Shown one piece after another: positions 22,849-58,900 of a stretch of 64,000 bases of DNA (within the stretch, counting starts at the first letter, position 1; the number at the start of each line of letters is the position of its first letter). The notes beneath the pieces were generated by a model, which saw nothing but the letters and a program-made list of their open reading frames with translations, was not told where the DNA came from and searched no databases. The translations under genes were made by a program, and so were the position numbers. Source of the stretch: Pirellulaceae bacterium (lineage in GTDB: Bacteria > Planctomycetota > Planctomycetia > Pirellulales > Pirellulaceae); assembly GCA_041685355.1 (NCBI GenBank), contig JAWLFY010000005.1:5269-69268 (forward strand). The letters run 5' to 3'.

Positions 22849-22886
22849 TCGTCGTCGCTTGACGTCATCGAGCGGATCGAACCGAC

Positions 22887-22923: not shown

Positions 22924-22970
22924 ATCCGCACGGCCCCACCCGACGGCCCTCTCTGACCGGAACCGCAGCG

Positions 22971-23450
22971 ATGCCTATCTCCCGTGAAACGCAACTCTTG
23001 CCTAGCGTCTTCGACCGGCTCGCCGATCTGAGCGGTGACGGCATCAACAGCGACGAGTGGTACGACATCGACCGGCTGACCCAGGCGGTCCGCCGCGACT
23101 TGGAGGACCTGCTCAACACGCAAAGGACCGTTCCCGGTCTCGCGTCGTCGTTCCCGATGCTGGCCGAGTCGGTCGTCGGGTTCGGCGTCCCGGACCCGTC
23201 GACGTTCTCGCTGGAGACGCCGGCCGGGCGACGCCAATTCGCCGCGGCGCTGGTCCACACGATCCACACGTTCGAGCCGCGGCTCCGCGACGTCCGCATC
23301 GAACTGGGGGGCGACAGCGGGGAAAAGCTCCGCGACCTCCGCTTCCGCGTCGTCGCGCGACTGGCCGCCGAGCCGGCACCTCAGATCATCTTCGAATCCA
23401 AGCTCCATGTCCCGAGCGGACAGTTCAGCGTGGGGGAAGCGTCCCAATGA
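22971..23450 (+). CDS. tssE: Type VI secretion baseplate protein TssE (gp25-like)
   Basis: 159 aa. 'LLPSVFDRLAD', 'DLEDLLNTQR', 'FGVPD'. The stop overlaps the tssF start (ATGA). Confidence 0.88.
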   Translation: MPISRETQLLPSVFDRLADLSGDGINSDEWYDIDRLTQAVRRDLEDLLNTQRTVPGLASSFPMLAESVVGFGVPDPSTFSLETPAGRRQFAAALVHTIHTFEPRLRDVRIELGGDSGEKLRDLRFRVVARLAAEPAPQIIFESKLHVPSGQFSVGEASQ

Positions 23451-34243: not shown

Positions 34244-34326
34244 GTGACGCTCGGCTTGTGGGCCGCGAGGGGCGACCGGGGACTTCGGGCGAATCGGCGG
34301 GGCGCGGCTTTCCGGGGGGCGATGGT

Positions 34327-36561
34327 ATGATCGGAAGGATGACGAACGTGACAGTGAACTTACTGCAAACGATCGAATCGAACACGATGCTCCGGGAGCG
34401 TCTCGCGTCGATGCCGCCCGATCACAAGACGATCGCGGTTTCTCCCGACGGGCGTCCCGAAAGCTTCTCGCATCCGTCGTGGCGACAGGCCGACGAATCG
34501 CCGACGGGCGAATCGTCAGCTGGCGAATCGTCAGCTGGTGAGGGATCAGCGGGCGAGGTTGCGACGGACGAGACCGTTTGGTTGTCCGATCCGGATGCCG
34601 CGGGGCGGGTTTCGTCGGGGGCGACTGGCTCGGACCCGTCGGGGCCAGCGCGTTCGAAGCCGTCAGTCGCGGTTCCGACGCCCGACGAGGGGTTCGTCCC
34701 GCGACGGCGGTTGGCGAGTGTGGGCGCGGGGAAGTCCGGCGAGACGGAGTACCGAATGGTCGGGCGTCTCGGCAGCGGCGGGACGGGGTTCGTGTATCAG
34801 GCCCACCAAAGATCGGTCGACCGGGAAGTCGCCGTTAAGGTTCTGCGTGACGAGTTGGCCCGAGACCCCCAGGCGCGGTCGCGGTTTCTCGCTGAGGCTC
34901 GCGTGATCGGGGCGTTGGACCACCCGAACGTGATCGCGTTGCACGAGTTGGGGGTCGACTTCGACGGGAACCTGTTTTATTCGATGAAACGGGTCGACGG
35001 GACGAGTTGGGACCAGCGGATCGAGACGCAATCGCAGAAGGAGAACCTGGAGACGTTGTTGCGGGTCGCCGACGGGATCCGCTACGCACACTCGCGAGGC
35101 TTGATCCATCGGGACTTGAAGCCCGAGAACGTGATGCTCGGTCAGTTCGGCGAGGTGTTGCTCGCCGATTGGGGGTTAGCGTTGAGTCACGCCACCGCGG
35201 CGGCGGACGGGAGTCCGCACCGTTCGGCGATCGGCGGCACCCCGGCGTACATGGCCCCGGAGTTGGCGACCGGAGACGCGTCCGCGATCTCGTTCGGGAC
35301 CGACATCTACTTGCTCGGGGCGATCCTGTTTCAGGTGTTGACCGGTTATCCGCCGCATCACGGCGAGAGTCTGCTCGCGTGCATCCGTTCGGCGGCGAGC
35401 AACGAGATCCGTCCGACGCGGGTCAACGGCGAGTTGATGGAGATCGCGATGCGGGCGATGGCCTCACGTCCGCAGGACCGGTTCGCGACGGTGGACGAAT
35501 TCATCGCGGCGATCCAAGACCACCGCACCCATCAGCAGAGCGACCGATTGGTGCGACGGGCCCGCGAGCGGATCGAATCGGCCGGGACGGAGAACCATTA
35601 CGAGGCGTTCCGGGTGGCCGACGCGTTGTTGCGGGAAGCGATTGAGGTGTGGCCGGAGAACAAGGCGGCGACGCGGGCGATCCACGAATTGCAGCTCGAC
35701 TTTGCCCGAACGGCCGCGGCACGCGGCGATCTCGATTTGGCGCTCGCCCTGTACGAGGCGGCGGGTGAGGGGGAATCGGAGGCGTCGGCCCGGTTACGGG
35801 TGCAGATCAAGGAGCGGCGACAGACCGAGGAGCGTCAGGCGAAGTATTCGACGCTGTTCACCGCGTCGCCCGAAGCGGGGCTGCTCGTCCGACTCTCCAG
35901 CGGCGAGGTGGTCGAGGCGAACCCCGCGTTCGTGCAGTTGCTCGGATACGCCGAGGAGGAGATCGTCGGGCGGCGGATCCCCGAGCTGAACTTGTGGGCG
36001 TCTCCCGAGCGGCGGATCGAGTTCGTCGAGAAGTTACGGCAGGGCGGGGCGGTCGAGAATTTGGAAGTCCCGTTCGTGCACCGGGACGGCGGCCGGGTCG
36101 ACGTGTTGGTCAGCGCCCGGACGACCGAGGTGGCGGGGGAGGAAATGTTGATTTCCACCATCCGCGACATCTCCCAGCGGAAGGCGGCCGAGAACGAACT
36201 CGCCCGGAGCCGCCGTCGCCTCCGCGAGTTGCAACGGATGGCGGGGCTGGGCACGTGGTCGTTCGACGTCGCGACGGAACAGATCACGTGGAGCGAAGAG
36301 ACCTACCGGATGCTCCGCCGCGATCCGTCGGCCGGGCCGCCCAGTTTCGCGGAGTATCTCGATTCGATCCACCCGGACGATCGGCAGCGGATGCGGGCGA
36401 CGATCCTGACGTCGCTGGAGAACGGAACCGCCTACGAATTGCGAATCCGTCAGCGGGTCGGCGAACTCGGATACCGGCGTTTCATCGCTCGGGGCCAACC
36501 GGTCCAGGACGACGAAGGGAGCACGGTCGAGCTGTACGGCGTCGTGTTGCCCGACGAATAA
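34327..36561 (+). CDS. Ser/Thr protein kinase with C-terminal tandem PAS domains
   Basis: Kinase motifs 'GSGGTGFVYQA', 'VAVKVL', 'HRDLKPENVML', 'ADWGLA', 'GTPAYMAPE'. Then a TPR-like helix region and two PAS-like modules. The start is uncertain (ATG at 34327; the track start is 34258). An in-frame GESSA repeat lies near the N-terminus. Confidence 0.85.
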   Translation: MIGRMTNVTVNLLQTIESNTMLRERLASMPPDHKTIAVSPDGRPESFSHPSWRQADESPTGESSAGESSAGEGSAGEVATDETVWLSDPDAAGRVSSGATGSDPSGPARSKPSVAVPTPDEGFVPRRRLASVGAGKSGETEYRMVGRLGSGGTGFVYQAHQRSVDREVAVKVLRDELARDPQARSRFLAEARVIGALDHPNVIALHELGVDFDGNLFYSMKRVDGTSWDQRIETQSQKENLETLLRVADGIRYAHSRGLIHRDLKPENVMLGQFGEVLLADWGLALSHATAAADGSPHRSAIGGTPAYMAPELATGDASAISFGTDIYLLGAILFQVLTGYPPHHGESLLACIRSAASNEIRPTRVNGELMEIAMRAMASRPQDRFATVDEFIAAIQDHRTHQQSDRLVRRARERIESAGTENHYEAFRVADALLREAIEVWPENKAATRAIHELQLDFARTAAARGDLDLALALYEAAGEGESEASARLRVQIKERRQTEERQAKYSTLFTASPEAGLLVRLSSGEVVEANPAFVQLLGYAEEEIVGRRIPELNLWASPERRIEFVEKLRQGGAVENLEVPFVHRDGGRVDVLVSARTTEVAGEEMLISTIRDISQRKAAENELARSRRRLRELQRMAGLGTWSFDVATEQITWSEETYRMLRRDPSAGPPSFAEYLDSIHPDDRQRMRATILTSLENGTAYELRIRQRVGELGYRRFIARGQPVQDDEGSTVELYGVVLPDE

Positions 36562-43397: not shown

Positions 43398-46300
43398 TTA
43401 ACAGTAGGTCGAAGATCCGGGGCCCGTGAGCCACGCCCGGACCTCCGCGGGGTCGGGGATCTCGCACGGACGGAACTTGACGACCCGTCCGTCGGCATCG
43501 TCGTACAGAATCATCGTGGCGGCCGATAGCTCGGCCGCCGCCGGGGTATCGATCAGCGCCGCGGAGTCGGACGCGTTGAGCCGGCCCAACACACGGAGTT
43601 CCAGGTCGTGCAAGGACGACCGGGGCAACCACCGCGTGAGCGTCTCGGCGGCGCCGCACACGACCACCGAGAAAACGTTCACCGCGGGGCCTTCGCGAAG
43701 GACATGTTGCAGCGATTTCCCCCCGCCGACCGAATCCGTGGCGTCGAGCGAAAAGGAGAACGCTTCGTCTTGACGGAGATCGCGGAATCGATCGAGCGGG
43801 TCGATCACGACAAATCGCGGGGTGCCGGCGGTCCCCGAATCGAGCCGTCGCCGCACCTCGCCATCGAGTTCGACCATCGCCGACTCGCTGTCGCGGGGCC
43901 GGACCGTGGACACCTCGATCCCGGCCTTCCCGATCCAATCGGCCAGTGGCGGCCCGTCCTCGGCACGACGCCCGTCGAAGTAGTGGACCTTCGCGCCGGG
44001 ATCGCCCCGCAGCAGCGTCCCGAGCATGCTTGCCACGACCGGCCCGCGAGATTCGGGGGGGGCGACGACCAACACGTTCCTTCCCGCGTCGGACGTCAGT
44101 TCGGCCGACACCGGCGGGCCGATCTCGACCGATTCGCCAAGCAACCCGCGCCGCGACAGGGCGACCTCGACACCTCCGCTTGCTCCGATCGGCACGCCAG
44201 GTCTGCCGACGGCGGCGTCGGCCAACGCGGGGGTCCAGCGACAGGGGCGATTCCCTTCGAACACGACCGGGGGGGGCAACCGTGAGACACGCGACCCGTC
44301 ACGGGCGGCGATCCCGCGGATCATTTCGGTTTGTCGGTCCGCCCCCAGCCAGGCGACCTGGAACGGCCGATTCCCCTCGATCAATCCTCCCGCGTCATTG
44401 TAGATCGCTTCGCCGGGGCGGCTGATCAAACGGGCCGCGGTGTTCTCGTCGGAGAGGATCAAGGCCGCGTCCGATTCGCTGCACTGCAACGCGATCCGGA
44501 CCGCCATCTGGCCGAGCGTCGCGCGGGGAAGCGAGTGGGTGCCGGCCAACGATTGGCTGCTCAGGATCACGTGCATCCCGAACGAACGGCCTTGACGGAC
44601 CAATCGGTCGAGCAACATCGCGCAGTCCGCGGCGAGCCGATCGTCGCGGACGAACAGTTCTTGGAACTCGTCGACCAACAACACGATCCGCGGCATCGGC
44701 TGACCCGCGTTGCGGCGATAACCGACCAGGTCTTGCGCGGCAGCGGCGCGGAACGCCTCGCCGCGTTCTTGCAATTCTTCGTCGAGCCGCCGCAACACGC
44801 TGTGGCCGAACTCCCGTTCACTCTCGATCCCGATCACCCGGGCGTGTGGCAAGCCGCCGTCGGCGTAAGGCTTGAACTCGACCCCTTTCTTGAAGTCGAG
44901 CAGGTACATTTGCAGCTCGTCGGGCGTGTACAGCGACGCGGCCGCCAAGATCGTCGCGTGCAGCAGCGTGCTCTTCCCCGATCCCGTCTTCCCCGCGATC
45001 AAAACGTGTTGCCGAACGCCCTCGCCGAGTTCCATCGCGAGCGCGCGGTTCGCCCCTTGGGTTCCGATCGGGATCGACAGCCCTGGGCCGGCGTCTCGGT
45101 CTCCGCCCGTGGCCAAGTCGCCCGCGGCAGGGAGGATCGACTCGAGCGGGATTTGCACCCGCGCCGCGGCAACGGCGTCTTGACCGATCCGTTCGATCAG
45201 CCGTCCCCTCAATCCGTCGGGCGGACCTGCGGCGGGCACGAGCGGCGGCCATTCGCGGCCCCCTTCGTCACACCTCACGGCCCCGTCGGGGGCGATTCGG
45301 ATCGAAAGCAACTTGTCCGAATCGAGCCGCTCGCCGTCGGGCCAAGGCCGCGACAGGTCACGCACGAGGAGGGTGAACACGCCGCACCGTCGGCCGCTTT
45401 CGATCAGCGCGTTGAGGTGGCGGACGGCGGTTCGCGAGAGCCCGTCGGGGACCCCGATCGCGGCCACCGCGCGGTACGGTTCGGCCATCGACCCGGCGAC
45501 CTCGTTGTAATCTTCGACCCGTGCGTAACGGTCGCGGAGCATCGTCTGCAAAACGTCCTCAACGTGGTGCGCGAGTTCCCCCAGCCGCGCTTCGATCTGG
45601 GACTCGGTCGTCCACACGCGATGTCCCACCAGCGCCGGGTCGTGGTCGGCCAAGTCCATGAACCGGGTGAAGTGCTGGCCGCGACCGATCGGGTCGATCA
45701 ACGTCAACCGCCCGCGACCGGGCGGGGCCGACGAGAGCAATCGCCACAACGTTTGGTGGGCCAGATCGACCGCGTCGGTCATCCGTTCGGTCGGGGCGGA
45801 GATCATCACGCCGCTGTGGACCCGGCGGTGGACCGCGACCGGCAACTCGAGTTGAACCGTGCCATCTTCCGTTGCGACCGCGTCGCGATCCGTTTCGACC
45901 GCACCTCCCTCCGCTTGCCCCGTGCCGCCGGCTTGTCCCGTGCCGCCGGCTTGTCCCGTGCCGCCGGCTTGTCCCGTGACGCCGGCTTGTCCCGTGACGC
46001 CCGATTCGCCGGTCGCTCCGTTCCGCTTGGCCACCACGGACATTGACCCGATCGGCAAGGCGTCGACGGTCGCGCCCCGTTCGCCGCTGCCCGCGATCAC
46101 GGCGGCCCAGTCGGGATGGCGGCGGCGGAGCCGGTTTCGGGCGGCGTCGGCGTGCGCGATGCCGCGACGGATTCCGTCGTCGACGCGTCGTTGGAGTCTC
46201 GTCAGCTCGTCTCGTCGACGGGCCTCGTTCGCTTCCCGCTGTTGATTCAGCGTCGCTTCGGTGTCGAGAATCTCCTGCGTGATCGCGCGGGCCGTCTCGT

Positions 46301-47444
46301 CGGCGCGGAATCGCATCTGAGTCGCGACCGCTGCGATCTCGCGGGCGAAAGTCTCGGCAACCCGGTCGGCGTCCTCCCGCCACTTGCGATGCGCCTCGTC
46401 CCGCTCATCGGCGAGACGTTTGACCCGATCGCGGGTTTGCCCCTGGGCCCACGTCCGGATCTCGGCGAGCCGTCGGTCTCGTTGCCGCGCCGCCTCGTCC
46501 CGTTCCCGTTCGGAGCGCTCGGTCGCCAACTTGCGTCCGATCGCGGCGGCCCGTTCGGCGACGACGGCCCAACGTTCGGCGGTCGGGTAGTGTCGGCGGG
46601 TCTGTTTCTTGACCGGTCGCATCAAGATCAGGAAGGCGAAAAATCCGAGCAGCCCGCCGACCGGCACGCCCGCCGCCATCACAAGCCACGGCGGGTCGGG
46701 GCCGAGGAAGTAGGCGGCGACGCCCCATGCGACGACGAGCACCACGGTCCCCACCGCGAGTGACGATCCGTCGAGGATCCGCGCCGCGGTCCCCGCGTGC
46801 AAAGCCTCGATCGTCTCGTCGACACCTTGTGCGGCCCGGTCGATCGTGGCGAACACGTCATCGAGCGTCGCGGGCTTGGCCGTCCCGGTCTCATCCCACG
46901 GGTTGTCGGGGGGCGGGACTTGCGGCAGGTAGTCGAGTCGGCCGAGCGTCAACGCACGACACGCTTCGAGCGATGCTTGGAGCGGCTTCAGGGCCTCCGC
47001 AATGCGGGCGAACGATGCCCGCCGCTTCATCTCCGGCTTCCGTTTCACCACGTCGTGCCGACCGATCACCGCTTGGCGTCTCGCATCGGCTTCCGATTCG
47101 ATCGCCTTGGCGTCTTCCGAAGCGGCCCGCCGGTCCGCCGCGAGCCGCTCGCTCAGCTCCTCTCGCAAGCGGATCGTGTCCGATTCGTAACGGTGCGTCA
47201 GAGTCTCCTCCGCCGCGTCCCACTCGTCGAGAACTTGTCGGCGACGGGTGGCGCAGCGATGTCGACACTCGGCCATCGTCTGTTCCCGTGCGACCGCCTC
47301 CTCTTCGACCTGCCGCGCGTGCCCGGCGAGCAGCTCGCCGCGACGACGTTCGACGTCCCGCAGACGTGCCTCCAGCCCGTCGAGCAGGCGCTGTTGGCGG
47401 CGGGGGTCGAACAGGCCGGCGGGTCCGACCGCGGAATCTTTCAT
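43398..47444 (-). CDS. EssC/EccC-like FtsK/SpoIIIE family ATPase with three tandem ATPase-like domains
   Basis: 1348 aa. ~220-aa coiled-coil N-terminus. Two adjacent TM helices (LAVGTVVLVVAWGVAAYFLG, MAAGVPVGGLLGFFAFLILM). A second coiled-coil and a (GQAGGT)n linker. Domain 1 has no P-loop. Domain 2 has 'HVLIAGKTGSGKST' (Walker A) and 'IVLLVDEFQ' (Walker B). Domain 3 'NVLVVAPPESRGPVV' is degenerate. No FtsK gamma/winged-helix tail is present. Confidence 0.85.
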   Translation of the reverse strand: MKDSAVGPAGLFDPRRQQRLLDGLEARLRDVERRRGELLAGHARQVEEEAVAREQTMAECRHRCATRRRQVLDEWDAAEETLTHRYESDTIRLREELSERLAADRRAASEDAKAIESEADARRQAVIGRHDVVKRKPEMKRRASFARIAEALKPLQASLEACRALTLGRLDYLPQVPPPDNPWDETGTAKPATLDDVFATIDRAAQGVDETIEALHAGTAARILDGSSLAVGTVVLVVAWGVAAYFLGPDPPWLVMAAGVPVGGLLGFFAFLILMRPVKKQTRRHYPTAERWAVVAERAAAIGRKLATERSERERDEAARQRDRRLAEIRTWAQGQTRDRVKRLADERDEAHRKWREDADRVAETFAREIAAVATQMRFRADETARAITQEILDTEATLNQQREANEARRRDELTRLQRRVDDGIRRGIAHADAARNRLRRRHPDWAAVIAGSGERGATVDALPIGSMSVVAKRNGATGESGVTGQAGVTGQAGGTGQAGGTGQAGGTGQAEGGAVETDRDAVATEDGTVQLELPVAVHRRVHSGVMISAPTERMTDAVDLAHQTLWRLLSSAPPGRGRLTLIDPIGRGQHFTRFMDLADHDPALVGHRVWTTESQIEARLGELAHHVEDVLQTMLRDRYARVEDYNEVAGSMAEPYRAVAAIGVPDGLSRTAVRHLNALIESGRRCGVFTLLVRDLSRPWPDGERLDSDKLLSIRIAPDGAVRCDEGGREWPPLVPAAGPPDGLRGRLIERIGQDAVAAARVQIPLESILPAAGDLATGGDRDAGPGLSIPIGTQGANRALAMELGEGVRQHVLIAGKTGSGKSTLLHATILAAASLYTPDELQMYLLDFKKGVEFKPYADGGLPHARVIGIESEREFGHSVLRRLDEELQERGEAFRAAAAQDLVGYRRNAGQPMPRIVLLVDEFQELFVRDDRLAADCAMLLDRLVRQGRSFGMHVILSSQSLAGTHSLPRATLGQMAVRIALQCSESDAALILSDENTAARLISRPGEAIYNDAGGLIEGNRPFQVAWLGADRQTEMIRGIAARDGSRVSRLPPPVVFEGNRPCRWTPALADAAVGRPGVPIGASGGVEVALSRRGLLGESVEIGPPVSAELTSDAGRNVLVVAPPESRGPVVASMLGTLLRGDPGAKVHYFDGRRAEDGPPLADWIGKAGIEVSTVRPRDSESAMVELDGEVRRRLDSGTAGTPRFVVIDPLDRFRDLRQDEAFSFSLDATDSVGGGKSLQHVLREGPAVNVFSVVVCGAAETLTRWLPRSSLHDLELRVLGRLNASDSAALIDTPAAAELSAATMILYDDADGRVVKFRPCEIPDPAEVRAWLTGPGSSTYC

Positions 47445-47483
47445 TGCGATCTGTCGAAATCGGTGTCGAGTACGGGCGGTCGG

Positions 47484-47777
47484 TCAGGCGTCGGTCGCTC
47501 CTCCTGAGTCTAGTGCGGAATTCCCGCCCCGGTTGGCGGCCGTGTCGTCGTCTCGCAGCATCCGGTCGGCGGAGCGGACCACCCGAGTGTATTCCGCGAG
47601 CGCCGCCGCGAGCCGGTTCAGGCTCGGACCGAGCTCCGCCAAATGCTGTCGCTCGAACTCCGCGGCACGCGCATCGGCCCAGTCTGTTCGGACCGACTGC
47701 CACAACCGCGCCAACTCGACGAATTCGTGCCGGAGCCGGTCGTCCGCGTCTCGGATCGGAGTCAACGGGTCGTGCAC
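47484..47777 (-). CDS. WXG100-like small helical protein (W-x-D variant)
   Basis: 97 aa with a GTG start. Predicted helix-turn-helix size class. 'TDWADARAAEF' resembles the WXG100 core 'W.G.aa.aF'. It has a disordered acidic/Gly tail. It sits 39 nt upstream of the FtsK-like gene, in an operon-like arrangement. Confidence 0.45.
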   Translation of the reverse strand: MHDPLTPIRDADDRLRHEFVELARLWQSVRTDWADARAAEFERQHLAELGPSLNRLAAALAEYTRVVRSADRMLRDDDTAANRGGNSALDSGGATDA

Positions 47778-47840
47778 CGGGGCGGCTCCAAACGGAACGG
47801 GATGTCAAACGGGCTGTCGAGCCGGACTCTTCCAGATCGC

Positions 47841-49424
47841 TCACGCGTTGAACGTGCGGAGCATCTTGCGGCCCTTGAACAGGTGAAACAGTTCGGCGGC
47901 GCCGAGCGGGCGCATTCGCCCCTCGACCGCCTGGTCGATCGTTTCCAACCCGTCGGTCACGACGCGGCACGTCGTCCCGTCGCGGACCGCCCGAAACACG
48001 CCGGCGTGTTCGTCCAAGAAGAAACCGAGCAATTCCGGCTCGATCGATTCGTACTCGCTCCGGTCGAGGTGTCGCGTCAGCGGGTCGATCAACCGCCGCT
48101 GGGCCTCGTTGAGCTGGTCGGCGGGGACGGTGAAGATCTCAGGGTGCTCGGCCTGCCAACCCGCATAAATCGCATAAATGTCTTCGTTCGGGAGGTCGGC
48201 GACATCGGCTGACAAGGCGAACACGGCGGGTCCCGTCATCCCGACGTTGCTGTATCGCTGGTCGCCGAAACTGTACTCGAAGCGAACCAAGCGGACGTCG
48301 ACCGGCTCTTCGAAACTTGGCCACATCATCCGCCGCGACGCGATGACCTCGACCGACGTCGGGGGAACGCCCATCTGTTGTGGTTGCGAAAGCCACAACG
48401 CCATCTCCGCCTCGGCCGTCGCCGACTCGTCTCGCCACCGCGGATCGACCCGGTTGCCGAGACCCAGTTCGTCCAGATAGTGAATCGCACGCAGCCGTGC
48501 CGCGGGCTCGGCGGTTAATTCGATGAGCCGCTGCTCGCCGGACTGCTCGCCCAACCGCGCGAGTGCCCCGGCGGCCTCACACTGCACCCGGCGATGGCGG
48601 AGCTCGACGGTCCGGTTCAGACTCCCGATCGCTGACCGGTCCCCGATGATCCCGAGCGCGTCACATAGCGAGACCGCCAAAGCCACCGCTTCCCCCAGTC
48701 GCGATTGCACCTCGGTCACGTCGTCGCCGAACGAACGGGGGTCCTCCTCGAACCGGTCCAGCCGGTGTGCGATCTCTCCGAGCAACGCGTCGAGCGTCGC
48801 CACCCGGTCGGCGGCCGGATGGGTCGGCGTCCGACCGACACGGGTGACGTAATTGGCCAAATCCAACACCGGGGCGGCGAGCGGCGGTCGGTCGAGCAGT
48901 TCGAGCAGCGCCGGGAATACCGCGTCGATCGGCCAGTCGTCGTTTTGCATCAACGGACTCAGCAGGTGGCCCGCTTCCATCCAATCTCGCGGCGGATGAA
49001 TCGGGATCGCCGAGGCGAGCGCGGTCAGCGACTCACGCCCCCGATCCATCGACAACAGCTGGAGCAACAAATGCGTGTTCGGCGTCGGTTGGGGCAACGC
49101 CTCGAGCACCCCGGTGACCGAATCCGCTTCGATCCCCCCCTCCGCCGCGACTCCCGTCCGCAGCGCCGTCAGATGCACCAGCCGCAGCAACCCTCCGAGA
49201 ATCGCCGGGTCGGATGTCGCGAGCGTTTCCCGATTCCGGCACAGCTCCGCGAGCATCACCCCGGCGTCGAGTGTCGGCTCCTGGGCCAGTTCATGGAGCC
49301 GAACGCCGGCTTGAACCGGGTCCGCCTCCGGGCCGAGCAAGGGGGTTAGATAGTCGTGCGGTAAGATGGTGCCGATCCTCGATACGGATGACGATCCCTG
49401 ACGGGGGAAACAGTTTGTTCCCAT
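47841..49424 (-). CDS. Hypothetical cytoplasmic protein, HEAT/ARM-like N-terminal region plus alpha/beta C-terminal domain
   Basis: 527 aa with ATG at 49424. No TM helix or signal peptide. Helical-repeat character ('RRVQCEAAGALARLGEQ'). It is the first gene of the apparent three-gene operon. Confidence 0.65.
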   Translation of the reverse strand: MGTNCFPRQGSSSVSRIGTILPHDYLTPLLGPEADPVQAGVRLHELAQEPTLDAGVMLAELCRNRETLATSDPAILGGLLRLVHLTALRTGVAAEGGIEADSVTGVLEALPQPTPNTHLLLQLLSMDRGRESLTALASAIPIHPPRDWMEAGHLLSPLMQNDDWPIDAVFPALLELLDRPPLAAPVLDLANYVTRVGRTPTHPAADRVATLDALLGEIAHRLDRFEEDPRSFGDDVTEVQSRLGEAVALAVSLCDALGIIGDRSAIGSLNRTVELRHRRVQCEAAGALARLGEQSGEQRLIELTAEPAARLRAIHYLDELGLGNRVDPRWRDESATAEAEMALWLSQPQQMGVPPTSVEVIASRRMMWPSFEEPVDVRLVRFEYSFGDQRYSNVGMTGPAVFALSADVADLPNEDIYAIYAGWQAEHPEIFTVPADQLNEAQRRLIDPLTRHLDRSEYESIEPELLGFFLDEHAGVFRAVRDGTTCRVVTDGLETIDQAVEGRMRPLGAAELFHLFKGRKMLRTFNA

Positions 49425-49567
49425 TGTCCGCCGGTCGTCGAGGCCGTCAATTCGGCGCCCGACGCGTGCCCGACGTGCGGTCGCGGGTTAGACTCGGTGA
49501 CCGAAGCGACCCTCCGCCGGAACCGTTTGGCCCCGTCTCGGCTCACCCGCCGCTTCCCCTCCCCGAT

Positions 49568-52394: not shown

Positions 52395-53060
52395 ATGGCA
52401 AAATCGATATGGCCGAGTGACGAAAAGACCGATGTCCTGCTCCGCCGTGCGCGGGAAGGGAGCGAGGACGCGGTCAATCAGTTGCTGGAGCGGCACCGTG
52501 TGCCGATCCGGCGGATGGTCGAGATGCGTCTGGATCGGAAGGTCCAGCGGCGGATCGACGTCAGCGACGTCGTCCAAGAGGTGATGGTCGAGGCGAGCGG
52601 ACGGCTGACGAAGTACCTCGACGACCCCGCGATGGCGTTCCACCTGTGGCTCCGCCAAATCGCTTGGGACCAGATCATCGACACCTACCGACGGCACCGG
52701 GTCAGCGCTAAACGGAGCATGGACCGGGAACAGCCGATGGAGGCCGCCGCCCCCGACCATTCGACGTTGGACTTAGCGATCCAGTTGTGTGACCCCGCGA
52801 TGACGCCCGCCGCCGTCGCGACCCAGCGGGAGATCGCCGAGAAGGTCGAATCGGCGATCGGACGGCTCGACGAGACCGACCGCGAGGTGATCCTGATGCG
52901 GCACTACGAACATTTATCGAACCTGGAGATCGCCGAGGTCTTGGGGCTCAACCCCCCCGCGGCGAGCATGCGGTATCTTCGCGCCGTCCGTCGGTTGCGG
53001 ACGCTGCTGGAGGCGGAGGACGCGGAGGGCGAGAACGCCCCCAGCGACGCCCACGCGTGA
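52395..53060 (+). CDS. ECF-type sigma-70 family factor (kinase-associated)
   Basis: ATG at 52395 with GGAGGA upstream. 'AVNQLLERHRVPIRRMV', 'DVVQEVMVEA', and region 4 'LSNLEIAEVLGLNPPAASMRYLRAVRRLR'. The stop overlaps the kinase GTG (GTGA). Confidence 0.88.
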   Translation: MAKSIWPSDEKTDVLLRRAREGSEDAVNQLLERHRVPIRRMVEMRLDRKVQRRIDVSDVVQEVMVEASGRLTKYLDDPAMAFHLWLRQIAWDQIIDTYRRHRVSAKRSMDREQPMEAAAPDHSTLDLAIQLCDPAMTPAAVATQREIAEKVESAIGRLDETDREVILMRHYEHLSNLEIAEVLGLNPPAASMRYLRAVRRLRTLLEAEDAEGENAPSDAHA

Positions 53061-54910
53061 GCGATCAGGAACGGCAACGGGCCGCGCTCCCCGAGCAACA
53101 TGAACACACCGAGCAACATGAACACACCGAGCAACATGAACACACCGAGCAACATGAACAACAGCTCGCGGACCTGCTCGCCGAACTGACCGACGCGGTG
53201 TGTCGTGGCGAGCCGGTCGATTTCGATGCCACGTGTTCCCGACACCCGCATCTTGCTGACGAGCTCCGCGGCGTGTGGGGCGCCGTATTGGTGACCGATA
53301 CCGCGGCCTCGGCCCAAGAGGAACGTCCCCGCCACGAGTCTGTCGACGAGGACGGCGGCAGCGAAAGCGACGACGGATCATCGGGCCGGTGGCGGGGGAT
53401 CGAGTTGCCGACGACCGTCGGTGACTACGAACTGCTCGAGGAGGTCGGTCGGGGCGGCATGGGGGTCGTGTTCCGGGCCCGTCAGATCAGCCTCGATCGT
53501 GAGGTCGCGGTCAAGATGATCCTCCGGGGTCGACTTGCCAGCGACGCGGATCTCCACCGCTTCCTCGCCGAAGCCTCCGCGACCGCCAAGCTCGAGCACC
53601 CCAACATCGTCCCGGTCTACGACGTCGGTGACGTCAACGGACGCCCCTTCTTCAGCATGAAGTTTATCGAAGGGGAGACCCTGGCCGACCGGCTTCGTGA
53701 CGGGCCGTTACCGCAGCGGGAAGCGGCGAGGCTGATCGCCGTAGTCGCCCGGGCGATCGGATTCGCCCACCGCCAAGGGATCCTGCACCGTGACCTCAAG
53801 CCGAGCAACATCCTGCTCGCGCGGGACGGGACCCCGATGATCAGCGATTTCGGGCTCGCGAAGCGGGTCGGGACGAAGGTCGACCTGACACGCAGCGGCA
53901 TGCTCGTCGGGACGCCCGCCTACATGTCGCCGGAACAGGCCGGGGGACGCCGCGCCGCGGTCGGCCCCGCCAGCGACGTCTACAGCCTCGGCTGTGTCCT
54001 CTACGCCACCCTCACCGGTCGCCCGCCGTTCGTCGCCGAGTCACCGATGGAGCTGGTGATGCTGGTCATCGAGCAGGAACCGCCGCCGCCACGGAACCTC
54101 CGACCCGGTATCGATCGTGATCTGGAAATGATCGTCGTCCGCTGCCTGCAGAAACCCGCCGACCTCCGATACGGGTCGGCCGACGCGTTCGCCGATGACC
54201 TCGAGGCGTACCTCGCCGACGAGCGGGTCGCGGCCCGAAGCGGCCACTTCAACCAAGTCGTCGCGCGGCTGTTCCGCGAAACCCACCACGCGGCGGTTCT
54301 CGAGAACTGGGGACTGCTCTGGATGTGGCACTCGCTCGTCCTCTTGCTCGCCTGCCTGGCGACGTGGTCGCTCGACGTCGCCGGCGTCACCCAACGGGGC
54401 GCCTACGCGTCGGTCTGGACCCTCGGGCTCGGGGCGTGGGCCGCCGTCTTCTGGAAACTCCGACAACGGATGGGGCCGGTCACGTTCATCGAACGACAAG
54501 TCGCCCACGTGTGGGGCGCCAGCATGATCGCGATCGCGCTGCTGTTCCCGCTCGAATGGTGGCTCGAAATGCCCGTGCTCAGCCTCTCCCCGATGCTCGG
54601 GGTGATCAGCGCGATGGTGTTTATCATCAAGGCGGGGATGCTTAGCGGGACCTTCTATGCCCAAGCCGTCGCGCTCCTGATCGCGTCGATCGCGATGGCC
54701 CTCATCCCGCAAGCCTCGCACCTGATCTTCGGCGTCGTCGCCGCCGCCTGCTTCTATATCCCGGGGCTCAAATACCAACGCCGTCGCGGTCGCCCCTCCG
54801 ACGATTCCGGCGTGAGCAAATCCTCGTCGGGCGGCTCCCGATCAGCTTCGAATCGTTCGGTATCAAGAACACCTTCTTTCCCTCCCGATCATGGATCCGT
54901 TCATGAGTGA
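53057..54910 (+). CDS. Ser/Thr protein kinase with polytopic C-terminal membrane domain
   Basis: 'GRGGMGVVFRA', 'VAVKMI', 'HRDLKPSNILL', 'SDFGLA', 'GTPAYMSPE'. About 6 hydrophobic helices follow residue ~400. The N-terminal (EQHEHT)3-4 repeat is encoded by 18-bp tandem units at 53093-53160. Confidence 0.88.
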   Translation: MSDQERQRAALPEQHEHTEQHEHTEQHEHTEQHEQQLADLLAELTDAVCRGEPVDFDATCSRHPHLADELRGVWGAVLVTDTAASAQEERPRHESVDEDGGSESDDGSSGRWRGIELPTTVGDYELLEEVGRGGMGVVFRARQISLDREVAVKMILRGRLASDADLHRFLAEASATAKLEHPNIVPVYDVGDVNGRPFFSMKFIEGETLADRLRDGPLPQREAARLIAVVARAIGFAHRQGILHRDLKPSNILLARDGTPMISDFGLAKRVGTKVDLTRSGMLVGTPAYMSPEQAGGRRAAVGPASDVYSLGCVLYATLTGRPPFVAESPMELVMLVIEQEPPPPRNLRPGIDRDLEMIVVRCLQKPADLRYGSADAFADDLEAYLADERVAARSGHFNQVVARLFRETHHAAVLENWGLLWMWHSLVLLLACLATWSLDVAGVTQRGAYASVWTLGLGAWAAVFWKLRQRMGPVTFIERQVAHVWGASMIAIALLFPLEWWLEMPVLSLSPMLGVISAMVFIIKAGMLSGTFYAQAVALLIASIAMALIPQASHLIFGVVAAACFYIPGLKYQRRRGRPSDDSGVSKSSSGGSRSASNRSVSRTPSFPPDHGSVHE

Positions 54911-55969: not shown

Positions 55970-58900
55970 TTACTCCGTGGCTTCGAGCAAGTTTCCCGGT
56001 AGCGTCTTGGGCCAGTCGCCGGTGAGGCGGATCGATCGGATTCGGCAACTGCGGTCGGCTTCGCCTAGCAGGCCGAATCGTCGGTCGAGCGAGGTGGCGA
56101 AGCGGGCGACCGGCTTGCCGTTGACGGTGACCACCACGGCGTCGCCCTCGGCGGTCAGTTCGACGTCGTTCCAATCGTTTTCGCGGAGTTCCGGTTTCCC
56201 GTCACCGAGTCGTTCGTCCGGGTCGACCTCGTTCAACGGGTCGAGCTCCACCGACTCCAGCGAATCGCGTTGCGGCAGCCATCGCAGCTTTACCCCGTCG
56301 GGCCGTAGCAAGACGCCGATCCGCCCGACCGACGGGTGCGTCTCCTGCTTGTCCGCCTCGTGAAAGAATTCGTACCGGATCGTTTCCCCGTCGAGCAGCG
56401 GCCGCATGTACTGGATGTGTCGTTGGCCGGCCGTGGCCGTCGAGACGCCTCCGTTGCCGGACCGCAGTTCCCGATCGCGACCGTACCAAGCGAATCGTTC
56501 GACGTTCTGGAGGTTCTGTTGTCGTTGCGCCTGAACCTGGTCGGGGTCTTGGTCGGACTTCAGCGGCAACGCGATCGGCATCAAGTTTCCGCCGATGATC
56601 GGACAGCTCCAGCCGCGGAGGTCTTCGTCGATCAGGTCGACTTCGCGGGCAATCGTGGGGTTCCCCTCCAATCGGATGTCGGCCGCCTCCGAGATCGTGT
56701 AACGTTCGAAGTGCACGCCCACGAACGGCATCGACGACGTCCGGCGATCGACCGTCGCTTCCTTTCCGTTGATGTCGACCACGACCTTGTCACCGCGGAC
56801 GACGAGCGAAAGCGTGTTGTCCTTCTCGATATGGGTCGCTTGTTGGTCGAGCACCACGGTACTCCGCGTGACCAGTCCGCGGATGGTGAGGGTCGAGTTG
56901 TGCGGCTTGACCACGTAGGACGTCCCGCCGAATTGCGAGTGACTTTCGCCCCAACCGCGGCGGATGTTGCGATGGCTGAAGGAAAAATCACCCGCCAGCG
57001 GATACTTCAGCATCAACGCGTTCTGGCCGCTCCCCCCGGTGAACCGCAACGTCCCGTCACGCATCACGTAAATCGGCTCCGTCATGGGAGCGACCGGCTT
57101 GTGGATGTACGGGAGCTGAACGCTGACGAAATGTTTCAAGGGCGACCCGACCGTCGCGCCGGCCGCGGCGGTCCATCCCGCGTCGACGATCACCCGGTTG
57201 AACACCGAGGCGGAGGCGCTGAGGCTCCGGCGGCGGGAATGGTCGATCAGCGGTTCCCACGCCGCGACCGCCGCGTCTCGGAGGGTTGCGTGGGAAAGGC
57301 ATCGCGCGGCAAACATCGCCGACACGACCGGGATCGGAGTCTCGACGTTCTTGGTCGGCATCGTCTCCTTCAGCCGTTCGACGACGCGTTCCAGCGGCGT
57401 CTTGGCCTCGTCGGTCCGTCCGTCGGCGAGCAGCGCCAGACCGATCATCGCCTCCACCTCGTCGCCCGGCGTCTCCCGATGTGACTCGAGTCGCCGCAGG
57501 AGTGTGTTGGTCCTGCCGCATTCGGCCGCCGCCTCGGCGATCATCAGGCTGAGACCGGCGATCGGAAACTTGTCACTCGCGACCGGGATCTCGTGTGGAC
57601 TCGTCCGCCCCTCGAATAGTGACGCGAACGCTTCGGGCGGATCGACGTACAGCACCAAGTTGCTCGACCGGAGCAACGGTTCGTCGTCGGAATCTCCGAA
57701 GACGACCCGGGACAACAGCGTGTAACGTTGCTCGGGGTCGACGTTCGCCAATTGCATCGCGAGTTTGGGGACCAAGTCGCCGGATGTCTGGAGCCCGGGA
57801 GCCCGCCGCACGCCTTGACGCAATAAACTTCCCGACATCGACCAGAGTTTTCCCTTGGTCGCCGAGCCCCCGAGCGACGCCATCTCGGCGTTGTAGCGAT
57901 CGATCCCGTAGCTACCCGAATAGTTCGAATAGTGAAGCTGCACACTGACTAAGTATCGATCCATCGCCTGTTTCGCGAGCGTCCGATCGATCCCCGGTTC
58001 CTCCAACACTTGGCGAACCATCCACCCCCAGATCGCCCCGGCGTCGCTGATCGGCTTGTGCCGACTTGCCTCGTCGAGCAGGTACGTTTCGATCGCCGCG
58101 ACGACCGGGGTCACGCCCCACCGGTCGTGAACCGGCAACACCGCGTGGAGCACCTCGTTGACGGTCGTCTTTGCGTCTCCCTGACCCGAACGGTCCTTTG
58201 CCGCGGCGGGCGACCGTACCGCCGGTTCCGAATCGTCCAACGGGGTCGCGACGCCGAGCCCCTTCCCCAGGTCACGCAGCGCCTGATCGGTGGCGTGCTC
58301 CTGATCCTTCGTGACAGCGAGATGCACTCGAATCAGGTCGATCTGGTACGTCGCCGCCACCCTGCTCCGGCGATCATCGAGCAGTTCGCTCAGTTCGGCG
58401 GTGTTGCCGCTCGCCACCGCGGCCGTGGCGAGCAGACGCGACAGGCTTGGCGGATGCGTTTTGGGCTTTGGAAAGTTCGACGTATTGCTCGACGTCAACA
58501 GGTCGACGGCGTAGGGGAAGACCTCGTCCGGTCGGACCGCGGGCAGGACCGCCTCCTTCAACGCGACGTAAATCTGATTCGCCGCCGTCGGGTCCTCCGC
58601 TTTTTGCGACGCGTCGACGATTGTCGCGATTTCAAGGGCGACCCAATCGAGATTTTCTTGGGGCTGGTTACCGGACGACCCGACCGAGCGGCTTTGGGTC
58701 GGGATCACGAAGGCGCTTCCGCTGGAGGCGGATTCGGTCAACGTTCGTAGCGGCGGGCCGCCGCCGAACCCGCGGCGCAGCGCTTCGGCGACGACGTCCC
58801 ACGCCCCCGCCTCGCCCGCCGTCTCGGCGACGCGGAGACAGTTTCTGGCGGTGTCGACCGTCACGACGGCGGGCGTCTCCGCCGCCGGCGCCACGTTGTC

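What the first reader, a model, noticed from the sequence alone, without database searches (positions are those of the whole stretch)
43398..49424. Type VII-like three-gene module (HEAT-like protein, WXG100-like protein, triple-domain FtsK/SpoIIIE ATPase) in a diderm planctomycete-like genome
Three co-oriented genes are separated by 63 and 39 nt. They encode a 527-aa cytoplasmic helical-repeat protein, a 97-aa helical protein with a WXG100-like core, and a 1348-aa membrane FtsK/SpoIIIE protein with three tandem ATPase-like domains and no gamma (DNA-binding) domain.

A multi-domain FtsK-like ATPase next to a ~100-aa WXG-type protein is the minimal genomic signature of ESX/T7SS in Actinobacteria and Firmicutes. 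None of the other T7SS membrane parts (EccB/D/E, EsaA, EssA/B) is recognisable here. The N-terminal architecture differs too: long coiled-coils flank a TM hairpin instead of FHA domains.

Scattered WXG100/FtsK pairs outside monoderms have been noted bioinformatically. To my knowledge none has been studied. How such a system would cross an outer membrane is unknown.
Basis: partly seen in the sequence, partly recalled or inferred. Interest (0 to 1): 0.8.

Follow-up and report, generated by a model that had tools for sequence, protein, structure and literature searches.

The report
Planctomycete WXG-like protein plus EssC-like ATPase
The window carries a small helical-hairpin protein next to a membrane-anchored ATPase related to type VII secretion motors; this pairing is conserved across Planctomycetota and was noted once in a 2012 footnote but never studied, while the neighbouring HEAT-repeat gene is only a local neighbour.

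Summary
The three minus-strand genes exist exactly as described (527, 97 and 1348 aa; gaps 63 and 39 nt).

The ATPase has a 2-TM hairpin between long helical regions and three P-loop-fold domains. Only the middle domain keeps Walker A/B. Its closest characterised relatives are EccC/EssC, not FtsK.

The 97-aa protein is a predicted helix-turn-helix hairpin with an invariant W-x-D in the turn instead of W-x-G. It is a divergent paralogue of bona fide WXG100 proteins.

The small gene plus ATPase pair is found in 70 of 75 informative loci across Planctomycetota. Most loci carry a four-gene module: WXG100, a ~200-aa helical protein, the WxD protein, and the ATPase.

The HEAT gene is linked only in a narrow Pirellulaceae clade, and its family mostly sits elsewhere. 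No other T7SS membrane parts are present.

Zhang et al. [quoted passage not shown]

Verdict: a real member of a computationally noted, experimentally unstudied T7SS-like family. The pair is supported; the triad is only partly supported. Export function is inferred, not shown.

The parts
47841..49424 (-). 527-aa protein with PBS-type HEAT repeats (aa ~217-315) and a conserved C-terminal region with no family match. No signal peptide or TM segment. It is a neighbour of the module, linked to it only in a narrow Pirellulaceae clade.
47484..47777 (-). 97-aa WXG100-like hairpin protein of the 'WxD' type. Predicted helix 6-30, turn 31-35 carrying W33-A-D35, helix 36-88, then a disordered acidic tail. 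GTG start with GGAG 7 nt upstream.
43398..47444 (-). 1348-aa membrane-anchored EccC/EssC-related (YueA-like) FtsK/HerA-superfamily ATPase.
46785..47444 (-). ATPase aa 1-220: N-terminal cytoplasmic charged helical (coiled-coil-like) region, in the place of the FHA domains of EssC.
   Evidence: Composition 66% E/R/K/D/Q/A/L. Weak matches to the ZorA tail. No Pfam domain.
46611..46769 (-). ATPase aa 226-278: two hydrophobic helices joined by the short loop GPDPPW (a TM hairpin), followed by the basic stretch RPVKKQTRRH.
   Evidence: Kyte-Doolittle scan. Equivalent segments occur in 69 of 73 full-length planctomycete homologues.
46095..46607 (-). ATPase aa 280-450: second charged helical (coiled-coil-like) region.
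   Evidence: It matches apolipoprotein A-IV helices in the PDB profile search.
45913..46001 (-). 18-nt tandem repeat, 4.9 copies, encoding (GTGQAG)n in the linker. It is lineage-specific and its copy number is unresolved in one public assembly.
45090..45812 (-). ATPase aa 545-785: first P-loop-fold domain, degenerate (IDPIGRGQ, no Walker lysine).
   Evidence: AF2 alpha/beta domain and collinear Foldseek alignment to EccC. No significant sequence match to EccC domains. Matches the first domain of proteobacterial plasmid homologues.
44310..45089 (-). ATPase aa 786-1045: the only catalytically intact FtsK/SpoIIIE domain. Walker A G818-T826 lies at 44967-44993 and Walker B VDEFQE at about 44658-44681.
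   Evidence: Pfam FtsK_SpoIIIE 3e-25. Best match is to D1 of EccC-like proteins. Motifs are invariant in homologues.
43401..44309 (-). ATPase aa 1046-1348: third P-loop-fold domain, degenerate. APPE-SRG replaces Walker A and IDPLDRF replaces Walker B.
   Evidence: hhalign against the middle domain: probability 92%, E 6.6e-7, in register. AF2.
49423..49450 (-). The only sigma-70-like promoter match in the region. Its second hexamer ends within the annotated ATG of the 527-aa gene. No terminator-like site lies between the three genes on this strand.
   Evidence: This is a consensus match only.

Best explanation
The 97-aa gene and the 1348-aa gene form the core of a T7SS-related module. A WXG100-type helical hairpin protein, with W-x-D in the turn, is encoded directly upstream of a YueA/EssC/EccC-like ATPase.

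[quoted passage not shown] In Planctomycetota it is anchored in the cytoplasmic membrane by a tight 2-TM hairpin flanked by long coiled-coil-like helices.

The window copy belongs to a Pirellulaceae-specific paralogous clade. That clade has lost the two other genes of the phylum-wide four-gene module: a WXG100 protein and a ~200-aa helical protein. The window copy lies downstream of a HEAT-repeat family gene.

Inferred mechanism, not shown: the ATPase oligomerises in the inner membrane as EccC/EssC do. The hairpin protein dimerises into a four-helix bundle and binds a degenerate domain. It is either exported to the periplasm or acts as co-substrate or activator for export of a partner.

The HEAT protein is most likely only a co-transcribed neighbour. 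At most it is a lineage-specific accessory or cargo.
For: ATPase affinity:
- NCBIfam scores are EccCa 104 bits, EssC 86, EccCb 76 and FtsK 19.
- The family profile against PDB gives T. curvata EccC 3.6e-39, EccC5 4e-30, YukB 3e-25, TcpA 1e-9 and FtsK 1e-8.
- The AF2 model (pLDDT 82.6) has as its top Foldseek hit the EccC cytoplasmic D1-D3 structure, 1.6e-22 over 888 columns.
- The next-nearest database proteins are FHA-bearing EssC-like and EccCa proteins.

One active domain:
- 71 of 73 homologues have a single GxxxxGK[ST].
- The third domain aligns in register with the middle one, with its motifs destroyed.

Hairpin protein:
- AF2 (pLDDT 85.5) gives a helix-turn-helix with W33/D35 in the turn.
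- W and D are invariant in 55/55 and 60/60 sequences.
- The family profile's best PDB hit is S. aureus EsxA at 3.8e-5.
- An iterative HMM started from the window protein recruits the distal small protein. All 26/26 members of that distal family hit Pfam WXG100, with a best E-value of 3.6e-12, and the member listed individually scores 36.2 bits against a gathering score of 27.3.

Synteny:
- 70 of 75 informative loci carry the small gene.
- Independent gene calls show 90 aa (WXG100), 196 aa, 73 aa (WXG100 weak) and a 1275-aa ATPase.

Prior description: Zhang et al. 2012, footnote 6, names planctomycetes.

Same family on proteobacterial plasmids: the arrangement is WXG100, variable gene(s), small gene, ATPase. 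In Helicobacter the variable genes are an HNH toxin and a SUKH immunity gene.
Against: - All curated T7SS thresholds are missed: 104 vs 509 bits for EccCa, and 16.6 vs 27.3 bits for WXG100.
- The turn motif is WxD, not WXG.
- The C-terminal export motif HxxxD/ExxhxxxH is only partly matched.
- Foldseek hits for the hairpin are not significant, E about 1.
- No EccB/D/E, MycP, EsaA or EssA/B is present, and no other conserved membrane partner was seen in 80 loci.
- The periplasmic loop of the TM hairpin is about 6 residues, and no outer-membrane component is evident.
- The central P-loop domain also matches defence ATPases, SspH at 90 bits.
- The proteobacterial relatives lack TM segments, so the family is not intrinsically a membrane channel.
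- Nothing here shows expression or export.
Confidence: 0.6

Rival explanations
1. One reading: all three genes form one functional T7SS-like triad. The HEAT-repeat protein would serve as a dedicated cytoplasmic chaperone, adaptor or cargo of the system.
For: - The genes are co-oriented and tightly spaced (63 and 39 nt), with no terminator-like site between them and one promoter-like site upstream.
- HEAT, small gene and ATPase are kept together in 13 Pirellulaceae loci and in the nearest relative, even though the upstream flank differs in the window.
- The slot upstream of the small gene holds variable genes in other lineages: c4, an HNH toxin plus immunity gene, or a 405-aa protein in R. baltica. 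This resembles a cargo slot.
Against: - The HEAT family has 849 representative clusters and is mostly unlinked. Only 10 of 68 HEAT loci have the small gene downstream and 7 of 43 have the ATPase, all of them the closest relatives. Neighbours elsewhere are variable.
- The HEAT gene is absent from 67 of 80 ATPase loci.
- Profile comparisons to c4 and c6 find no WXG/LXG-like N-terminal targeting region.
Confidence: 0.2
2. The module is not a secretion system. The ATPase and its WXG-like partner would act in the cytoplasm or at the membrane in another process, such as a conflict or signalling system like the TerY-P-associated versions, or planctomycete-specific membrane or cell-cycle biology. The hairpin protein would be a regulator.
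For: - Proteobacterial homologues are soluble and sit beside CARF, VWA/TerY, PP2C and kinase genes.
- The planctomycete family is phylum-wide, roughly tracks taxonomy and lies among housekeeping genes. That pattern suits a core function more than an accessory weapon.
- No dedicated channel or outer-membrane partner is present.
- H. pylori HP0062 has been discussed as a possible chaperone or adaptor.
Against: - Every characterised relative of this ATPase clade (EccC, EssC, YukB) is a protein translocase, and WXG100 proteins are its substrates or co-substrates.
- The Helicobacter plasmid version carries an HNH toxin with a weak WXG-like N-terminus plus a SUKH immunity gene, the hallmark of exported polymorphic toxins.
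- The planctomycete ATPase has acquired a membrane anchor.
Confidence: 0.25
3. The large protein is a chromosome-segregation FtsK or a conjugative TraB/coupling-type DNA translocase, and the small ORF is incidental.
For: It has a Pfam FtsK_SpoIIIE domain, and public records annotate it as 'FtsK/SpoIIIE domain-containing' or 'DNA segregation ATPase'.
Against: - The FtsK model NF007615 scores 18.7 bits against a cut-off of 1566.
- There is no gamma domain, no 4TM N-terminus and no alpha domain.
- PDB scores for FtsK and TcpA are about 30 orders of magnitude weaker than for EccC.
- Planctomycetes have a separate canonical, essential FtsK, Plim_2063.
- The small gene is conserved in 93% of loci.
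- No relaxase or other conjugation genes are nearby.
Confidence: 0.03

Closest known systems
[quoted passage not shown] Includes the H. pylori HP0062/HP0066 'minimal T7SS' pair.
   Same: - Three FtsK/HerA-fold domains with only the middle one intact, and an adjacent small WXG-type gene. Planctomycetes are explicitly listed.
- HP0062 (PDB 3FX7) is the best PDB match of the planctomycete distal WXG100 family (5.6e-12). It has WRD in its turn, like the planctomycete consensus TWRD.
- Plasmid ATPases from Caballeronia and Helicobacter match all three domain profiles collinearly, with 238 and 179 bits for the middle domain.
   Different: - The planctomycete proteins carry an extra N-terminal region of about 500 aa with a TM hairpin between two long helical regions. 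The two plasmid homologues examined have no TM segment.
- The family was called 'mobile'. In Planctomycetota it is chromosomal, flanked by housekeeping genes, and its tree broadly follows taxonomy.
- The window copy lacks the distal WXG100 gene and the middle gene.
Type VII secretion core of Actinomycetota and Bacillota: EccC/EssC (YukB) ATPase plus EsxA/EsxB WXG100 proteins (T7SSa, T7SSb and variants c-j).
   Same: - A membrane ATPase with two TM helices, cytoplasmic N-terminus and cytoplasmic tandem P-loop domains.
- Best sequence and structure matches are EccC/EssC.
- An adjacent ~100-aa signal-peptide-less helix-turn-helix protein.
- Two small paralogues in the ancestral module, recalling EsxA/EsxB.
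   Different: - No FHA domains.
- Three P-loop-fold domains instead of DUF plus three, and only one with Walker motifs.
- WxD instead of WXG.
- No EccB/D/E/MycP, no EsaA/EssA/EssB/EsaB and no ubiquitin-like TsxB.
- The host is diderm.
- All curated model cut-offs are missed.
FtsK/SpoIIIE DNA translocases and conjugative coupling proteins (TcpA, TraB).
   Same: They share the FtsK/HerA-superfamily P-loop fold of the middle domain.
   Different: - No gamma or alpha domain.
- Much weaker scores.
- A different N-terminus.
- Partnered with a WXG-type gene.

Membership tests
EccC/EssC T7SS ATPase (TIGR03924, TIGR03925, TIGR03928) | Score at or above the curated NCBIfam cut-off. | tested here: not met
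   EccCa 104.4 vs 509 bits, EssC 86.5 vs 778, EccCb 75.6 vs 347. Only aa ~789-1015 match.
EccC/EssC T7SS ATPase | Closest characterised relatives are EccC/EssC rather than FtsK, TraB or VirD4. | tested here: met
   PDB profile: EccC 3.6e-39, EccC5 4e-30, YukB 3e-25, against TcpA 1e-9 and FtsK 1e-8. Foldseek top hits are EccC and EssC. No formal tree with all outgroups was built.
EccC/EssC T7SS ATPase | Two N-proximal TM helices with the ATPase domains in the cytoplasm. | tested here: met
   Hydrophobic hairpin at aa 226-249 and 252-278 with a basic stretch after TM2. Conserved in 69/73 homologues.
EccC/EssC T7SS ATPase | Three FtsK/SpoIIIE domains (D1-D3) with nucleotide-binding motifs, preceded by a DUF domain (and FHA domains in EssC). 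| tested here: not met
   Three P-loop-fold domains are predicted, but only the middle one has Walker A/B. There is no fourth domain and no FHA hit.
WXG100 (Pfam PF06013 / TIGR03930) | Score at or above the gathering cut-off. | tested here: not met
   Window protein: 16.6 vs 27.3 bits (Pfam) and 20 vs 44.85 bits (TIGR03930). 5 of 55 family members hit weakly. All 26/26 members of the paralogous distal family hit WXG100 at E<0.01; the one listed individually scores 36.2 bits, above the cut-off.
WXG100 | About 100 aa, no signal peptide, helix-turn-helix hairpin. | tested here: met
   97 aa. AF2 pLDDT 85.5 with helices 6-30 and 36-88. No hydrophobic segment. Foldseek top hits are HP0062, EsxA and EsxB but not significant.
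WXG100 | W-x-G motif in the turn. | tested here: not met
   W33-A34-D35. D is invariant in 55/55 and 60/60 sequences. H. pylori HP0062 has the same WRD variant.
WXG100 | C-terminal export signature (HxxxD/ExxhxxxH, or YxxxD/E in CFP-10-like proteins). | tested here: inconclusive
   V67-x3-D71-x2-L74 fits the first three positions and the last position is not conserved. Position 71 is acidic in only 26/55. Most homologues end one residue after a conserved Cys at position 74. The motif is taken from PMC3935865.
WXG100 | Forms homo- or heterodimeric four-helix bundles and is secreted in an ATPase-dependent manner. | not testable with these tools
   No multimer modelling or experiment was available.
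Complete T7SSa / T7SSb apparatus | EccB/EccD/EccE/MycP, or EsaA/EssA/EssB/EsaB, encoded with the ATPase. | tested here: not met
   Flanks are glycogen phosphorylase, an AhpC-like gene, ADH, sulfatase and kinases. Clustering of 80 loci finds no conserved neighbour beyond c6, c4 and c3.
Solo-WXG + three-domain, middle-active YueA-like ATPase family (Zhang et al. 2012) | ATPase with three HerA/FtsK domains, only the middle one active, beside a stand-alone WXG-type gene, in planctomycetes among other Gram-negative lineages. | tested here: met
   domains; adjacent small gene; Planctomycetota; definition; homology to proteobacterial members.
Solo-WXG + three-domain, middle-active YueA-like ATPase family (Zhang et al. 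2012) | 'Mobile versions of T7SS'. | tested here: inconclusive
   No mobile-element genes flank the window module, and GC content is within the window's range. The ATPase NJ tree is broadly taxon-coherent. Proteobacterial and Deinococcus members are on plasmids.
FtsK DNA translocase | N-terminal 4TM, alpha/beta motor and gamma (KOPS-binding) domain; NF007615 cut-off. | tested here: not met
   18.7 vs 1566 bits. No FtsK_gamma, FtsK_alpha or FtsK_4TM hits.
HEAT repeat (PF13646 HEAT_2, PBS-lyase type), for the 527-aa protein | Significant match to the repeat model. | tested here: inconclusive
   The window protein alone scores 17.5 vs 27.7 bits. 29/39 family members hit at E<1e-3, and the family profile hits alphaRep proteins at 2.4e-24 over aa ~217-307.

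The most novel reading that the evidence does not exclude
Planctomycetota carry a vertically inherited, phylum-wide minimal type VII-like export machine. Its only dedicated membrane component would be a 2-TM, single-active-site EssC-like ATPase. It would move WXG100-type hairpin dimers, and a ~200-aa helical partner, across the cytoplasmic membrane of a diderm cell into the enlarged periplasm. This would be the simplest T7SS known, and informative about how T7SS arose from soluble WXG/FtsK conflict modules. The window copy would be a specialised paralogue that has recruited a new partner.
Probability: 0.3. Interest if true: 0.8.

Novelty: new member of a known kind. Interest (0 to 1): 0.52.

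Why it matters
Current T7SS literature treats the system as confined to Actinomycetota and Bacillota. The single published remark on Gram-negative versions is a table footnote. I found no paper linking T7SS and Planctomycetota beyond that.

This analysis shows that the module is near-universal next to this ATPase family across Planctomycetia and Phycisphaerae. At least 499 species-representative loci were found, and about 8000 protein clusters. The planctomycete ATPase is membrane-anchored and looks chromosomally stable.

If it exports proteins, it is a type VII-like system working in a true diderm with no known partners. That bears on two questions: what the minimal T7SS channel is, and how substrates cross a second membrane. 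If it does not export, it reveals a non-secretory role for WXG100/EssC-like pairs.

Either outcome can be tested in genetically tractable planctomycetes.

Tried and rejected
- **RNA genes.** Rfam and tRNA scans found nothing relevant to the locus.
- **First homologue search.** It was redone with the C-terminal 829 aa.
- **c4, the ~200-aa middle gene of the wider module.** No Pfam or PDB sequence match; the MHC helix hits are chance. There is only a weak N-terminal resemblance to WXG100, hhalign E 0.015.
- **HEAT protein against c4 and c6 profiles.** No relation. The local alignments in that call were contaminated by over-long ORFs, so c3 vs c6 was repeated with clean alignments.
- **Foldseek of the 97-aa model.** The top hits are WXG100 proteins but E is about 1, so this is treated as suggestive only.
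- **Metagenome scan with a 39-sequence HEAT alignment.** It failed for lack of a conserved stretch and was redone with 11 sequences.
- **Defence-system reading.** PADLOC hits to SspH, mad8 and HerA cover only the generic P-loop domain. This was rejected because of the phylum-wide conserved synteny with WXG genes.
- **P. limnophila essentiality supplements.** No entry was found for a SpoIIIE/FtsK-like second gene.
- **Sutcliffe 2011.** It could not be read; its content is taken only from citing papers.
- **Second module in the source genome.** I could not test whether the source genome also holds a canonical c6-c4-c3-ATPase module elsewhere. The window has none.

Full report
**Observation.** They are 47841-49424 (527 aa), 47484-47777 (97 aa, GTG start, GGAG 7 nt upstream) and 43398-47444 (1348 aa). 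The gaps are 63 and 39 nt. The module is bounded by unrelated genes. Downstream lie a glycogen phosphorylase and an AhpC-like gene. Upstream lies a divergent sulfatase, followed by a 3-keto-disaccharide hydrolase, an ECF sigma factor and a Ser/Thr kinase. Two public assemblies carry near-identical DNA (GCA_041686655.1 and GCA_041687535.1). One and 1348 aa. The other truncates the ATPase to 794 aa because a 100-N scaffold gap lies inside an in-frame 18-nt repeat. The closest relatives by sequence are Pirellulaceae, such as Rubripirellula, Novipirellula and Roseiconus.

**The ATPase.**
- Pfam finds a single FtsK_SpoIIIE domain at aa 789-966 (3e-25). It finds no FtsK gamma, alpha or 4TM domain and no FHA domain.
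- NCBIfam ranks EccCa (104 bits), EssC (86) and EccCb (76) far above FtsK (18.7). All are far below their curated cut-offs.
- A profile of the family searched against PDB sequences gives T. curvata EccC 3.6e-39, EccC5 4e-30 and B. subtilis YukB 3e-25. TcpA scores 1e-9 and FtsK 1e-8.
- An AlphaFold2 model of aa 520-1348 (50-sequence alignment, pLDDT 82.6) shows three alpha/beta P-loop-type domains. Foldseek aligns the whole model to the EccC D1-D3 crystal structure (1.6e-22, 888 columns). EssC and EccC D2-D3 structures follow, and FtsK motor domains come only at 1e-12.
- Only the middle domain has Walker A (GKTGSGKST, aa 818-826) and Walker B (VDEFQE). Both are invariant in homologues.
- The third domain is a recognisable but degenerate copy of the middle one. 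hhalign gives 92% probability, with GKTGSGKS aligned to APPE-SRG and VDEFQE to IDPLDRF.
- The first domain is supported by the model and by homology to the first domain of plasmid relatives. It has no significant sequence match to EccC domains.
- By sequence the middle domain matches D1 of EccC-like proteins best.
- The N-terminal half consists of a charged helical region (aa 1-220), a tight TM hairpin (aa 226-249 and 252-278, loop GPDPPW, basic after TM2), a second helical region (280-450) and a low-complexity linker with (GTGQAG)n.
- In summary, the protein is EccC/EssC-like in topology and affinity but has one active site flanked by two degenerate domains.

**The 97-aa protein.**
- On its own it only grazes WXG100 models: Pfam 16.6 bits, E 0.009, and TIGR03930 20 bits, E 6e-4.
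- Family-level evidence is stronger. An iterative HMM started from the window protein collects 118 ORFs in 70 of 80 related loci. These fall into two paralogous groups.
- The proximal group (c3, 68-100 aa) contains the window protein. W33 and D35 are invariant in 55/55 and 60/60 sequences.
- In the distal group (c6, ~90 aa), 26 of 26 members hit Pfam WXG100, with a best E-value of 3.6e-12. The member listed individually scores 36.2 bits against a gathering score of 27.3.
- The c3 profile's best PDB hit is S. aureus EsxA (3.8e-5).
- The c6 profile's best PDB hit is H. pylori HP0062 (5.6e-12), followed by EsxB and EsxA.
- The c3 and c6 profiles align with the W-x-D motifs in register (hhalign E 1.7e-4, probability 49%).
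- AlphaFold2 (pLDDT 85.5) predicts helix 6-30, a turn carrying W33-A-D35, helix 36-88 and a disordered tail.
- Foldseek's top hits are HP0062, EsxA, T. curvata EsxA and EsxB (TM up to 0.7), but they are not statistically significant.
- HP0062 is a crystallographic antiparallel homodimer with WRD in the bend, and it clusters with an FtsK/SpoIIIE gene (PMC3397514). So 'WxD' is a known variant of the motif in Gram-negative bacteria.
- The published C-terminal signature HxxxD/ExxhxxxH is only partly matched.

**Synteny of the pair.**
The 80 best are almost all Planctomycetota. They include Pirellulaceae, Rhodopirellula baltica, Gemmatales, Isosphaeraceae, Thermoguttaceae, Planctomycetaceae, Phycisphaerae and Sedimentisphaerales, plus one Chthoniobacter.
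- The protein database holds about 8000 clusters at E<=1e-20. They are annotated only as FtsK/SpoIIIE, AAA or hypothetical proteins.
- Of the 75 loci with upstream sequence, 70 have the small c3 gene directly upstream of the ATPase, often overlapping it.
- About 50 loci carry a four-gene module: c6 (WXG100), c4 (~200-aa helical protein, no family match), c3 and the ATPase.
- Independent gene calls with precomputed Pfam hits show the same module between recA/aldH and rpoD/dnaG.
- No further conserved neighbour exists, so no EccB/D/E- or EssA/B-like partner is encoded with the module.
- About five loci are orphan ATPases beside unrelated genes.

**Where the window copy sits.** A neighbour-joining tree of the C-terminal 800 aa splits the family into two clades. 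One is a broad clade that roughly follows taxonomy and always carries c6-c4-c3. The other is a long-branched, Pirellulaceae-only clade that contains the window copy. Pirellulaceae occur in both clades, so the window's clade is best read as a lineage-specific paralogue. Within it, some loci keep c6-c4-c3 (L009, L021). R. baltica has a different 405-aa gene upstream of c3. Thirteen loci, like the window, have the HEAT gene upstream of c3. The window itself has no c4 or c6. In this clade the c3 proteins have replaced a conserved penultimate Cys by Leu and gained an acidic tail.

**The HEAT gene.**
- The family is real and large: 849 representative clusters at E<=1e-3, about 510-550 aa.
- It has PBS-type HEAT repeats in the middle and a conserved C-terminal region with no family match.
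- In 80 metagenomic loci found with the HEAT protein, only the closest relatives (about 57% identity or more) have the small gene and the ATPase downstream. That is 10 of 68 and 7 of 43 loci with enough room. The others have variable neighbours.
- So the 'triad' is a local arrangement, not a conserved system. Tight spacing, the absence of intergenic terminator-like sites, and retention of the three genes when the upstream flank changed leave co-transcription and a lineage-specific role possible. I found no WXG/LXG-like targeting region in the HEAT protein.

**What is already known.**
- Zhang et al. [quoted passage not shown] That is exactly the architecture found here.
- Sutcliffe 2011 is cited for WXG100 proteins in Cyanobacteria, Lentisphaerae, Proteobacteria and Verrucomicrobia.
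- Recent T7SS surveys and a 2025 review of Planctomycetota do not mention the planctomycete system.

**Plasmid relatives.** I confirmed the family link directly. A Caballeronia plasmid encodes WXG100 (89 aa, 1.3e-26 to the c6 profile), two unknown genes, a 76-aa gene and a 927-aa ATPase. These lie next to CARF, VWA, PP2C and kinase genes. A Helicobacter plasmid encodes an 89-aa WXG-type gene, an HNH endonuclease, a SUKH immunity gene, a 77-aa gene and an 823-aa ATPase. Both ATPases match the three planctomycete domain profiles collinearly and have one Walker A each. Neither has a TM segment. The planctomycete novelty is therefore the membrane hairpin with long coiled-coil-like arms, together with phylum-wide and apparently vertical conservation.

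**Mechanism, mostly inferred.**
- Shown: homology of the ATPase to T7SS motors; a single competent nucleotide site; predicted N-in/C-in membrane topology; a WXG100-type hairpin partner; conserved adjacency.
- Inferred from EccC/EssC biology: oligomerisation in the inner membrane; binding of a hairpin dimer to a degenerate domain, which activates the single active domain; translocation of the hairpin dimer, and of the c4-like partner in canonical modules, into the periplasm. I put the protein-export reading at roughly 45-50%.
- The identity statement has about 90% confidence. That statement is a T7SS-related WXG/YueA-like pair of the Zhang et al. type, in its planctomycete membrane-anchored form.
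- The main rival is a non-secretory regulatory or conflict role. It is suggested by the soluble proteobacterial relatives, by the lack of any channel or outer-membrane partner, and by the housekeeping-like conservation.

**Verdict.** The T7SS-like interpretation is supported for the WxD/ATPase pair and not for the triad as a unit. The kind has been noted computationally, with planctomycetes listed, but never examined. I rate it a new member of a known kind with useful new detail, and of moderate interest because it makes a neglected question experimentally approachable.

Noticed in passing
window 16019-26424: A type VI secretion core cluster lies about 18 kb from the finding: TssM-like (IcmF_N), TssL/DotU, TssA/ImpA_N, TssB/VipA, TssC/VipB, Hcp, TssE/gp25, TssF and TssG.
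   Followed up: partly
window 45913-46001: An 18-nt tandem repeat (4.9 copies, 97% matches) encodes (GTGQAG)n in the ATPase linker and is absent from homologues. In GCA_041686655.1 a 100-N gap sits inside it, and the gene is mis-annotated as 794 aa plus two antisense ORFs. GCA_041687535.1 differs by three substitutions in the repeat. The copy number may therefore be under-assembled or polymorphic.
   Followed up: yes
L166 4866-9828 and about 50 other loci (e.g. L031 5281-10364): The phylum-wide form of the module has four genes: WXG100 (~90 aa, consensus TWRD), a ~200-aa helical protein with no family or PDB match (c4), the ~70-aa WxD protein, and the ATPase. Stop and start codons often overlap. 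The N-terminus of c4 weakly resembles the WXG100 N-terminal helix.
   Followed up: partly
alignments A3/A6, column of window residue L74: Most proximal small proteins end with a conserved Cys followed by one residue (…C-E or …C-S at the C-terminus; 55/60 in A6). The window's clade has Leu there instead, plus an acidic tail, and the window protein has the longest tail (23 aa). The Caballeronia plasmid's 76-aa protein also ends …GCAQ.
   Followed up: no
L168 (Caballeronia plasmid pSBC2-5) 1555-11488; L169 (Helicobacter plasmid) 2104-6506: Soluble proteobacterial homologues of the ATPase lie in the arrangement WXG100, variable gene(s), small gene, ATPase. One is beside CARF, VWA/TerY, PP2C and kinase genes. 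The other carries an HNH endonuclease and a SUKH (SMI1/KNR4) immunity gene in the variable slot.
   Followed up: partly
L010, L011, L018, L076 (and possibly L053): These are orphan ATPase paralogues without any small WXG-like gene upstream. They lie beside AcrB, ABC/cNMP or EF-hand genes.
   Followed up: partly
L007 6288-7505, L020 6307-7524 (Rhodopirellula baltica): In these relatives a 405-aa gene with no Pfam match occupies the position that the HEAT gene holds in the window, directly upstream of the small gene.
   Followed up: no
window 49423-49450 and 49350-49424: The second hexamer of the only promoter-like match ends within the annotated ATG of the 527-aa gene. The first ~25 residues of that protein are not conserved in homologues, so the true start may lie further downstream.
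   Followed up: no
window 55970-63955 (-): A giant 2661-aa ORF with TPR repeats, DUF1581 and DUF1583_N, which are planctomycete-typical domains.
   Followed up: no
window 34258-36561 (+) and 53057-54910 (+): Two Ser/Thr protein kinases lie within about 7 kb on either side of the module, one of them with PAS domains. Public gene calls place an ECF sigma factor next to the second one. Kinases often accompany T7SS variants, but they are also very abundant in planctomycetes, so no link is claimed.
   Followed up: no
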